Positions 1,839 to 2,441 of a stretch of DNA of 64,000 nt are shown here, piece after piece; the first letter of the stretch is position 1, and each line of letters starts with the position of its first letter. The stretch lies in NCBI RefSeq assembly GCF_058153355.1, contig NZ_CM177019.1, one strand, 5' to 3'. Below the pieces are notes generated by a model that did no database searches, was not told the origin of the DNA, and worked only from the letters and a program-made list of their open reading frames with translations. Both the position numbers and the translations under genes were made by a program.

Positions 1839-2441
1839 AAATTTCATCCTCTGAAAAGTGAATACTGAGTAGCGGGTAAGCGACCTTAGCTCTGCTGCAA
1901 CATCGGCCCACAGGCACCAGACCAGGGGATTCATCCTTAAGAGACAGCGCAAGTGTATTGTGTTCACCGCTCATCAAAGACATCATGATGAAATGATGAT
2001 ATTCCGCATAAGAAAGAGGCATTTTTAGACGCATCGCGCTGAAGTGTGGTTGAATAAAAATCAATCTTTTCAGATAAGACTGTCGTACGCTTATTCTGCG
2101 AAAATAAGGCCGTCGGCAAAGTAAAATGACTCACATAATTGTTTCTGATGAATATCTTCTACTCACATGAATATTACACAATAATATTGATGCATCAGAT
2201 TATCTTACCTTTACAACATCACGTTAACAGCCAATGACACTTCTTGAATAAAAATATTGTCAATCAAAGAGTTATTTTTTATTTAAGATTATTCTCATTC
2301 AAGTAAAAGACATAATTCCTATCATCACAGCCACGCTCATTTTGAATTATCTGAATAATAGCGAGCGTTCTTTAGTTAAGCAGGTCTTAATTGAAGACGA
2401 AATTATTGTGTGTGCAACTTACTTAATACCGGACATCTAAG

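What the first reader, a model, noticed from the sequence alone, without database searches (positions are those of the whole stretch)
1987..2026. 40-bp element repeated upstream of ycgH and again in the island (12067..12106), encoding a conserved short peptide start
GATGAAATGATGATATT(C/T)CGC(A/G)TAAGAAAGAGGCATTTTT occurs twice with two mismatches. On the minus strand both copies begin an ORF MPLSYA(E/K)YHHFI... preceded by a Shine-Dalgarno-like sequence. At 12067 it terminates after 12 codons; at 1987 it runs on in a frame overlapping the ycgH start. It could be a leader-peptide or attenuator module, a small mobile repeat, or the footprint of a duplicated gene 5' end.
Basis: seen in the sequence. 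Interest (0 to 1): 0.4.

Follow-up and report, generated by a model that had tools for sequence, protein, structure and literature searches.

The report
Orphan scrap of an autotransporter leader
The 40-base repeat is real: one copy lies in the conserved upstream leader of an E. coli adhesin (autotransporter) gene, and the other is a 40-43-base leftover of that leader stranded in a patch of dead prophage DNA, so it is an ordinary genomic relic and not a new regulatory or mobile element.

Summary
The repeat is confirmed: 1987-2026 and 12067-12106 match at 38/40, with 0 matches expected by chance.

**Copy 1.** It lies in a ~345-nt leader directly upstream of a YpjA/EhaD-type AIDA autotransporter gene (ATG at 1838, minus strand). 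This leader is duplicated upstream of ypjA elsewhere in E. coli.
- The copy holds the start of a 39-codon ORF. RefSeq carries this ORF as "ATPase" or hypothetical protein, with no family support for the name.
- In K-12 the same bases are the 3' end of ymgJ, read in another frame.
- In this strain the stop codon is mutated (TGA to CGA), so the ORF runs 102 codons across the autotransporter start.

**Copy 2.** It is a sharply bounded 40-43-nt orphan fragment with unrelated flanks.
- It lies in a 4.8-kb insert of prophage debris between iraM and icd: a ren fragment, a Rac-like trkG cassette and an unknown 458-aa ORF.
- This insert occurs in 18 of 5,426 complete E. coli genomes.

**Rejected readings.** There is no Shine-Dalgarno sequence, terminator or notable RNA fold, and no Rfam hit. 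Copy number is at most 3 per genome. The leader-peptide/attenuator and mobile-repeat readings therefore fail.

**Best-supported reading.** The "footprint of a duplicated 5' end" fits best. The 39-codon block is about 2.7-fold more conserved than its flanks but shows no codon-position signature, so any function is probably at nucleotide level. Interest is low.

The parts
1987..2026 (-). Copy 1 of the 40-nt element. It holds the A-rich pre-start bases, the ATG (2022-2020) and the first 12 codons of the conserved leader ORF. It corresponds to the last 14 codons of K-12 ymgJ in a different frame.
1906..2022 (-). 39 codons (MPLSYAEYHHFIMMSLMSGEHNTLALSLKDESPGLVPVG) equivalent to the RefSeq 39-aa 'ATPase'/hypothetical ORF (WP_071791767.1, WP_001120794.1). 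Here codon 40 is CGA instead of TGA, so the frame stays open to 1717 (102 codons) and overlaps the autotransporter start out of frame.
1839..2185 (-). Roughly 345-nt leader/upstream region homologous between the ymgJ/ycgI-locus autotransporter and the ypjA locus. The +1..+120 block (the ORF) is the best conserved part.
1..1838 (-). 5' part of an AIDA-repeat (YpjA/EhaD-like) autotransporter gene, cut by the window edge. Its ATG is at 1838-1836 with a GAGGA SD. It is the positional equivalent of the K-12 ycgI remnant.
12064..12109 (-). Copy 2: orphan 40-43-nt fragment of the leader. It has the ATG at 12102-12100, 12 codons (MPLSYAKYHHFI) and a TGA at 12066-12064. The flanks are unrelated to the leader, and no gene is annotated here in related genomes.
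11913..12017 (.). Fragment 79% identical to the lambdoid-prophage 'ren' gene, about 50 nt from copy 2.
12156..13681 (-). trkG cassette (CDS 12206-13681) plus 50 nt of its 3' flank. The sampled part (window 12156-12700) is 89% identical to trkG of a Rac-like prophage. It ends about 47 nt from copy 2.
11509..16277 (.). 4.8-kb insert relative to the K-12 icdC-iraM junction. It holds the ren fragment, copy 2, trkG, IS5-family remnants and a 458-aa unknown ORF (14616-15992). The sampled stretches around copy 2 and the trkG 3' end (window 11472-12700) are found in only 18 of 5,426 complete E. coli genomes.

Best explanation
**Copy 1 is native leader sequence.** It lies in the ~345-nt region upstream of a YpjA/EhaD-family AIDA-type autotransporter gene. 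This leader exists as paralogous copies at two E. coli loci: ypjA, next to the pinH remnant, and the ymgI/ymgJ-ycgI locus, which is the one in the window. The 40 nt are the first third of the leader's most conserved block. That block happens to be open as a 39-codon ORF.

**Copy 2 is a relic.** It is a 40-43-nt scrap of the same leader, left between two deletion or illegitimate-recombination junctions. It sits in a 4.8-kb mosaic of lambdoid-prophage debris inserted between icd and iraM in one rare lineage. It has lost everything the leader would need to act: the upstream region, the rest of the block and the autotransporter gene.

**Shown versus inferred.**
- Shown: the identity of the copies, the extent of homology, their contexts and their distribution.
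- Inferred: that copy 2 is non-functional.
- Inferred: that the conservation of the 120-nt block reflects a nucleotide-level cis function (promoter, operator or 5'-UTR of the autotransporter gene), or gene conversion, and not a selected peptide.
For: - The repeat is far beyond chance.
- The same 39-codon ORF and leader lie directly upstream of ypjA and of the ymgJ/ycgI-locus autotransporter. The alignment shows contiguous homology from about -160 to the autotransporter ATG.
- The element occurs in 5,287 of 5,426 complete E. coli genomes, with a median of 1 and a maximum of 3 places per genome.
- All 115 fetched copies with classifiable upstream sequence have either the pinH-side or the ymgI-side upstream context. 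All 10 viral-contig copies are the ypjA locus.
- Copy 2 homology is only 40-43 nt with unrelated flanks. Its surroundings are a ren fragment, a Rac-type trkG cassette and IS remnants, inserted relative to K-12. They occur in 18 genomes only.
- Copy 2 carries the diagnostic bases of the ymgI-side, window-type leader (T at +8, A at +20) plus two private changes.
- The block +1..+120 has 5 paralog differences (4%) against about 11% in the flanks. Within-locus diversity is also lower there.
- Against a selected peptide: there is no SD; the 5 common differences are all non-synonymous; polymorphic sites fall 9:5:4 by codon position against 55:49:91 in the adjacent autotransporter CDS.
Against: - Two independent breakpoints only about 43 nt apart that preserve exactly the ORF start is a coincidence the relic model does not explain.
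- The 39-codon frame is intact in about 110 of 117 sampled copies, and its ATG is kept (or is GTG) in all but one. A translated uORF is therefore not excluded.
- No intermediate form was found, such as a longer leader fragment or an autotransporter gene next to this trkG. The origin of copy 2 is therefore reconstructed, not observed.
- No expression data were available.
Confidence: 0.72

Rival explanations
1. The element is the start of a genuinely translated 39-codon upstream ORF (a leader peptide) that controls the downstream autotransporter gene. Copy 2 would be a truncated remnant, or a 12-aa version, of that module.
For: - The ORF is intact in about 110 of 117 copies at both paralogous loci.
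- The conserved block coincides roughly with the ORF limits (+1..+120).
- The start codon is conserved.
- The ORF is called in thousands of RefSeq genomes.
- It is more widely conserved than the overlapping K-12 ymgJ frame, which is cut after 11 codons in the window and in all but one of the 56 sampled ypjA-type copies.
Against: - There is no Shine-Dalgarno sequence.
- Differences between paralogs are 5 non-synonymous to 0 synonymous, with no third-position excess, unlike the neighbouring CDS.
- The stop lies 64 nt before the autotransporter ATG, so there is no coupling.
- No terminator or alternative hairpins were found, and there is no run of regulatory codons.
- The stop is lost in this lineage, and frameshifted variants exist.
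- There is no Pfam, NCBIfam or Rfam support.
Confidence: 0.18
2. The 40-43-nt unit is a discrete functional DNA site, such as a recombination/att core, a regulator operator or the end of a small mobile element. On this reading it is retained at both places for that function, and as a direct repeat it brackets the 10-kb ymgI-iraM segment.
For: - Copy 2 has sharp boundaries on both sides.
- The two copies are direct repeats 10,080 bp apart.
- Recombinase or prophage debris lies near both kinds of locus: pinH at ypjA, and ren/trkG at copy 2.
- The element contains ATCATCAT-N3-ATCATGAT, a direct repeat at about one helical turn (sequence).
Against: - The bracketed 10-kb segment is ordinary core gene order in K-12 and nearly all strains, which carry only one flanking copy there.
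- There is no integrase, and no presence/absence polymorphism of the bracketed segment was seen in K-12 or strain Z1323HEC0475.
- The second half-site (ATCATGAT) is missing from copy 2.
- There are at most 3 copies per genome and only two upstream contexts elsewhere.
- By eye the element does not resemble Pin/Hin-type crossover sites as I recall them.
- The Fur-box match (12/19) is at background level.
Confidence: 0.06
3. Copy 2 is the last trace of a third, prophage-borne ypjA-like autotransporter gene that was carried as cargo and is now almost completely deleted. On this reading it is not a fragment copied from the neighbouring chromosomal leader.
For: - ypjA itself abuts prophage remnants (pinH, CP4-57) and is swept into predicted prophage regions.
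- Copy 2 lies among prophage debris.
- It differs from copy 1 at 2 of 40 positions and in the A-run length.
Against: - No phage record carries the element or the peptide.
- All viral-contig hits are the chromosomal ypjA locus.
- Copy 2 shares the window-type, ymgI-side diagnostic bases (T at +8, A at +20), which fits a local origin.
Confidence: 0.15

Closest known systems
5' leader of ypjA (b2647, adhesin-like autotransporter YpjA/EhaD) in E. coli K-12
   Same: K-12 ypjA-upstream DNA aligns with window 1-2219 at 83% overall. It contains the same 39-codon ORF (MPHSYAEYHH...; 41 of the 43 nt of the element), the same GAGGA SD and the same MNRTS... start of the autotransporter.
   Different: It is a different chromosomal locus, with pinH/ypjB upstream instead of ymgI/ymgG. 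The ypjA copy has L3H and keeps the TGA stop at codon 40.
ymgJ (b4594) and the ycgI pseudogene of E. coli K-12
   Same: This is the positional orthologue of copy 1. K-12 1223406-1223445 matches the element at 39/40, flanked by ymgI/ymgG on one side and an autotransporter remnant on the other.
   Different: - K-12 annotates a 61-aa GTG-started ORF in another frame that merely ends inside the element.
- That frame is interrupted after 11 codons in the window and in all but one of the sampled ypjA-type copies.
- K-12 has lost about 4 kb of the autotransporter gene, leaving ycgI, whereas related strains of the window lineage keep a 4.6-kb gene, which is frameshifted in EC42405.
RefSeq 39-aa proteins named 'ATPase' or 'hypothetical protein' (WP_071791767.1, WP_001120794.1 and their clusters)
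   Same: This is the same ORF as the one begun by copy 1. It is annotated in thousands of Escherichia/Shigella contigs, in two 90%-identity clusters of 190 and 179 member sequences.
   Different: The name has no support. There is no Pfam or NCBIfam hit and no longer homologue. In the window the ORF is 102 codons, and at copy 2 it is 12 codons.
Classical leader-peptide attenuators (trpL, hisL, pheL type)
   Same: A short ORF in the 5' region of a gene.
   Different: There is no SD, no run of cognate codons, no terminator/antiterminator pair, and 64 nt of spacer before the structural gene.

Membership tests
Leader of YpjA/EhaD-family autotransporter genes (paralogous 5' region) | Contiguous homology to the ~345-nt ypjA upstream region | tested here: met
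   This holds for copy 1: the alignment is continuous from about -160 to the autotransporter ATG. For copy 2 only 40-43 nt align, so it is a fragment and not a full member.
Leader of YpjA/EhaD-family autotransporter genes (paralogous 5' region) | Lies directly upstream of an AIDA-type autotransporter ORF | tested here: met
   Copy 1 lies 184 nt upstream of the ATG at 1838 (ORF start to ORF start), and PGAP calls the gene an AIDA repeat-containing protein. Copy 2 has no autotransporter within the 4.8-kb insert, so it does not meet this feature.
Leader peptide / transcription attenuator | Short ORF with a ribosome-binding site | tested here: not met
   No GGAG/GAGG/AGGA lies within 20 nt upstream of either ATG.
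Leader peptide / transcription attenuator | Intrinsic terminator and alternative hairpins between the leader ORF and the structural gene | tested here: not met
   There are 0 terminator-like sites in 1700-2500. The MFE z-scores are +1.02 and -0.22 against shuffles.
Leader peptide / transcription attenuator | Evidence that the peptide frame is read (coding-type substitution pattern or expression data) | tested here: inconclusive
   The frame is intact in about 110 of 117 copies. However, paralog differences are 5 non-synonymous to 0 synonymous, and polymorphic sites fall 9:5:4 by codon position against 55:49:91 in the neighbouring CDS. No Ribo-seq data were available.
REP/BIME, MITE or IS terminal repeat | Many dispersed copies in unrelated contexts | tested here: not met
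   The median is 1 and the maximum 3 places per genome in 5,287 genomes. Only two upstream contexts occur in the 115 classifiable fetched copies, and all 10 viral-contig copies share one of them.
REP/BIME, MITE or IS terminal repeat | Palindromic or terminal-inverted-repeat structure and target-site duplication | tested here: not met
   No inverted-repeat pair involving the element was reported in the window. By eye the flanks of copy 2 show no duplicated target.
Site-specific recombination (att) core | Direct repeats bracket a segment that is present or absent between strains and encodes or adjoins an integrase | tested here: not met
   The bracketed ymgI-iraM segment keeps the same gene order in K-12 with a single copy of the element. 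There is no integrase in 2026-12067.
ymgJ (b4594) | Intact 61-codon GTG-started ORF ending in the element | tested here: not met
   In the window the frame stops after 11 codons (GTG AGT AGA ... ATG TGA). It is intact in 39 of about 104 sampled copies, nearly all of K-12 type.
ATPase (RefSeq product name) | Recognisable nucleotide-binding domain or homology to a characterised ATPase | tested here: not met
   There are no Pfam or NCBIfam matches at E<=1-10. Homologues are only frameshift or extension variants of the same locus.

The most novel reading that the evidence does not exclude
The ~120-nt block that starts with this element would be an undescribed cis-regulatory leader of the cryptic YpjA/EhaD-family adhesin genes. 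It could act as a translated SD-less 39-codon uORF, or as a protein- or sRNA-binding site. In that case the K-12 gene ymgJ is annotated in the wrong frame. The orphan copy next to trkG might still bind the same factor.
Probability: 0.2. Interest if true: 0.4.

Novelty: new member of a known kind. Interest (0 to 1): 0.15.

Why it matters
The main value is for annotation.
- A 39-aa ORF propagated through thousands of RefSeq genomes as "ATPase" has no support for that name.
- The K-12 gene ymgJ overlaps a block that is better conserved in another frame and at a second locus (ypjA).
- The autotransporter here corresponds to the K-12 ycgI remnant, not to ycgH.

If the conserved block proves to be regulatory, it would offer a handle on how the normally silent YpjA-family adhesins are controlled.

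The orphan copy itself is a small marker of how prophage decay between icd and iraM shuffled local DNA. It has no evident biological consequence. Its longest perfect runs shared with copy 1 are 17-18 nt, which to my knowledge is below the length usually needed for efficient RecA recombination.

Tried and rejected
- **Rfam scan of 1-18000.** Nothing at either copy. The only hits elsewhere were sub-threshold (STnc150, STnc100).
- **RNA folding of the leader at both loci.** No better than shuffles.
- **Promoter/terminator scans.** One weak promoter-like site at 2227-2199, upstream of the shared leader. Nothing in or beside the element.
- **Search for a real ATPase or longer protein with this N-terminus.** Only frameshift or extension variants of the same locus were found.
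- **Phage records, by DNA and by protein.** No match.
- **Plasmid records.** 15 records matched, all Escherichia; several are 4.8-4.9 Mb and so look like mislabelled chromosomes. Features were annotated under 11 of the 15 matches, and these showed only ymgJ/'ATPase'/ypjA-type contexts.
- **Cross-species scan of one genome per species.** Only two E. coli-like contaminant contigs turned up, so no depth beyond Escherichia/Shigella was obtained. The exact-match pattern may also have missed diverged copies.
- **Metagenome scan.** 120 loci, none with copy-2-type flanks.
- **Viral-contig scans.** The element was found only as the ypjA locus. The two orphan flanks of copy 2 were not found.
- **Fur-box idea.** A 12/19 match, which is background level.
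- **Antisense ORF in register with the uORF.** Open for 51 codons, but the only start gives 22 aa. It was suggested solely by a weak excess of polymorphism at uORF codon position 1 and was not pursued.
- **Literature.** Nothing on this ORF or on the ypjA leader. ymgJ is mentioned only as uncharacterised. Hemm et al. 2008 is not held in the library.
- **Specialised-transduction or tandem-duplication scenarios for copy 2.** These were considered, but each still needs two separate breakpoints and cannot be tested with the data available here.

Full report
**1. The observation**

- The 40-mer GATGAAATGATGATATT(C/T)CGC(A/G)TAAGAAAGAGGCATTTTT is present at 1987-2026 and 12067-12106, on the same strand, at 38/40 identity.
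- A 3-mismatch search finds only these two copies. Dinucleotide shuffles give 0.00 expected.
- On the minus strand both copies read ATG CCT CTT TCT TAY GCG RAA TAT CAT CAT TTC ATC.
- Copy 2 then hits TGA after 12 codons.
- Copy 1 stays open for 102 codons from 2022 to 1717, crossing the autotransporter ATG (1838) out of frame.
- The claimed Shine-Dalgarno-like sequence is not there: both ATGs are preceded only by an A-run. The autotransporter ATG does have GAGGA upstream.

**2. Where the window comes from**

- The window is E. coli, in reverse orientation relative to K-12.
- The gene order is: AIDA-type autotransporter (minus strand, start 1838), copy 1, a ymgI-like ORF, ymgG, ymgD, ymgF, pdeG, ..., bluF, bluR, ycgX, an ariR-like gene, iraM (11148-11471), copy 2, trkG (12206-13681, minus strand), a 458-aa unknown ORF, icd (16369-17619, minus strand).
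  - K-12 ycgH lies in a ~3-kb segment between ymgD and ymgF that this strain lacks.
  - The window gene occupies the position of the K-12 ymgJ-ycgI remnant.
  - Its first 1838 nt plus leader are 83% identical to K-12 ypjA.

**3. What copy 1 is**

- In K-12 the element (39/40) lies at 1,223,406-1,223,445. There it is both of the following:
  - the last 14 codons of the annotated 61-aa ymgJ (GTG start, another frame);
  - the start of a 39-codon ORF, MPLSYAGYHHFIMMSLVSGEHNTPALSLQDESPGLVPAG.
- PGAP annotates that 39-aa ORF in many genomes as "ATPase" or "hypothetical protein". It calls it a partial "ATPase" pseudogene in the strain closest to the window.
- The same ORF sits directly upstream of ypjA/EhaD at a second locus, next to the pinH remnant.
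- The two loci align from about 160 nt upstream of the small ORF to the autotransporter ATG, roughly 345 nt in all.
- The element is found in 5,287 of 5,426 complete E. coli genomes, at 1-3 places each.
- Classification of the fetched copies gave the following.
  - Metagenome and E. coli loci: all 115 copies with enough upstream sequence to classify had one of only two upstream contexts, ymgI-side (55) or pinH-side (60). Downstream lay either a ypjA-like gene or the K-12-type ycgI deletion.
  - Viral contigs: all 10 copies were the ypjA locus.
- The "ATPase" name is unsupported. There are no Pfam or NCBIfam hits. The only homologues are frameshifted or extended versions of the same locus. The name is simply propagated across two 90%-identity clusters of 190 and 179 Escherichia/Shigella member sequences.

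**4. Is the small ORF a leader peptide?**

For:
- The frame is intact in about 110 of 117 sampled copies.
- The ATG is kept, or replaced by GTG, in all but one copy.
- Positions +1..+120 are distinctly better conserved than the flanks. There are 5 consensus differences between the paralogous loci (4%) against about 11% in the 160 nt upstream. Within-locus diversity is lower as well. After removing the 28 nt fixed by my search pattern the contrast persists, at 4 differences in 92 nt.

Against:
- There is no SD.
- All five common differences are non-synonymous (L3H, E7G, M17V, L24P, V38A) and none is synonymous.
- Polymorphic sites fall 9:5:4 over codon positions 1:2:3, and 3:3:0 for non-singletons. 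The adjacent autotransporter CDS gives 55:49:91.
- There is no terminator-like site, the RNA structure is no better than shuffles and there is no Rfam family.
- The ORF's stop lies 64 nt before the autotransporter ATG, so translational coupling is unlikely.
- In the window lineage the stop is mutated (TGA to CGA).

The competing ymgJ frame is less conserved still. It is cut after 11 codons in the window and in all but one of the 56 sampled ypjA-type copies.

I conclude that the block is constrained, or homogenised by gene conversion, at the nucleotide level. It most plausibly acts as promoter, operator or 5'-UTR sequence of these normally silent adhesin genes. A translated SD-less uORF remains possible; I put that at about 0.2.

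**5. What copy 2 is**

- Homology to the leader is limited to 40-43 nt (12067-12109), with abrupt loss on both sides.
- Relative to K-12, where iraM follows icdC within about 15 nt, this strain carries a 4.8-kb insert at roughly 11509-16277.
- Near copy 2 the insert contains:
  - a terminator-like hairpin;
  - a 105-nt piece 79% identical to the lambdoid-prophage ren gene (11913-12017);
  - 49 nt of orphan sequence;
  - copy 2;
  - 46 nt of orphan sequence;
  - a trkG cassette whose homology to Rac-like prophage trkG starts at 12156.
- Further on, related genomes show IS5-family remnants, with an IS100 insertion in EC42405, and the 458-aa unknown ORF.
- The stretches around copy 2 and the trkG 3' end (window 11472-12700) occur in only 18 of 5,426 complete genomes. 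These appear to be the same 18 genomes that carry the window-type leader at >=99% identity.
- Copy 2 has the window-type diagnostic bases (T at +8, A at +20) plus two private substitutions and a longer A-run.
- No annotated gene covers it.
- No intermediate allele was found in complete genomes, phage records, metagenome contigs or viral contigs.
- The simplest reading is a relic. A piece of the nearby autotransporter leader, or of a lost third paralogue, was trapped between deletion junctions in decaying prophage DNA. How it got there, whether by aberrant prophage excision or by duplication followed by deletions, is inference only.

**6. Other readings rejected**

- REP, IS or MITE: the copy number and contexts do not fit, and no inverted-repeat pair involves the element.
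- att site: the bracketed ymgI-iraM segment is ordinary core gene order with one copy in K-12, and there is no integrase.
- Fur box: the match is at background level.
- Antisense ORF: it is open but lacks a credible start.

**7. Comparison with known features and verdict**

- The element belongs to the leader of YpjA/EhaD-family autotransporter genes. Copy 1 is a full member and copy 2 a fragment.
- It overlaps the K-12 gene ymgJ and a RefSeq ORF mislabelled "ATPase".
- I found no literature on the ORF or on the ypjA leader.
The leader-peptide/attenuator and mobile-repeat options are not supported.
- Novelty is low: an unreported but ordinary orphan fragment, plus an annotation clean-up.
- Interest is 0.15.
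- The most novel surviving reading is an undescribed regulatory leader or uORF for cryptic adhesins, with ymgJ annotated in the wrong frame. I give it a probability of about 0.2 and modest interest if true.

Noticed in passing
window 10001-10066 and 16317-16383; K-12 locus L002 17445-17534 and 16591-16629: A ~66-nt copy of the icd 3' end plus its terminator hairpin (83% identical) lies between ycgX and the ariR-like gene. The iraM-containing islet is therefore bracketed by icd-downstream repeats. K-12 has the same remnant next to ymgL. This suggests iraM sits on an old icd-integrated element, nested with e14 in K-12.
   Followed up: partly
window ~11509-16277: A 4.8-kb insert between iraM and icd. 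It holds a ren fragment, a trkG 89% identical over its sampled 3' part to Rac-like prophage trkG, and IS5-family remnants. The stretches around trkG's 3' end (window 11472-12700) are present in only 18 of 5,426 complete E. coli genomes. EC42405 additionally has an IS100 inserted here, and is 434 bp shorter than the window between the two copies of the element.
   Followed up: partly
window 14616-15992 (-): A 458-aa ORF next to icd with no Pfam or NCBIfam family. By eye it contains an internal duplication (…[12 protein letters not shown]… / …[12 protein letters not shown]…) and two similar C-terminal segments. Its function is unknown.
   Followed up: partly
window 1903-1905 (-): Codon 40 of the leader ORF is CGA here, where K-12 and most strains have TGA. 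The ORF therefore reads 102 codons and overlaps the autotransporter start. In the related strain EC42405 the autotransporter gene itself is annotated as frameshifted, so the locus may be decaying.
   Followed up: partly
window 2134-2170 (-) versus K-12 ymgJ: The K-12 ymgJ reading frame is interrupted after 11 codons in this strain and in all but one of the sampled ypjA-type copies. It is intact mainly in K-12-type sequences. This questions whether ymgJ is a real gene.
   Followed up: yes
window 3163-3295 versus K-12 1,219,208-1,222,268: The ~3-kb segment that carries the ycgH pseudogene in K-12 (between ymgF and ymgD) is absent here.
   Followed up: partly
window 16157-16355 (+): A sub-threshold Rfam match to STnc150 (39.7 bits against a gathering score of 60; E=2e-5) just downstream of icd. 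It overlaps the boundary of the insert.
   Followed up: no
window 1042-1520: Tandem 54-nt and 105-nt-spaced repeats in the autotransporter passenger region. These probably correspond to the AIDA-type repeats that give the gene its PGAP name.
   Followed up: no
window 46403-46491 and 49351-49428: Pairs of 33-36-nt inverted repeats (GCCTGATGCGACGCT… / GCCGGATAAGGCGTT… types) about 2.9 kb apart. They look like ordinary REP/BIME elements.
   Followed up: no
window 36360-36534 and 38253-38427: Two blocks (54 and 31 nt, 76-77% identical) repeated at a spacing of 1,893 bp. This probably reflects adjacent paralogous genes.
   Followed up: no
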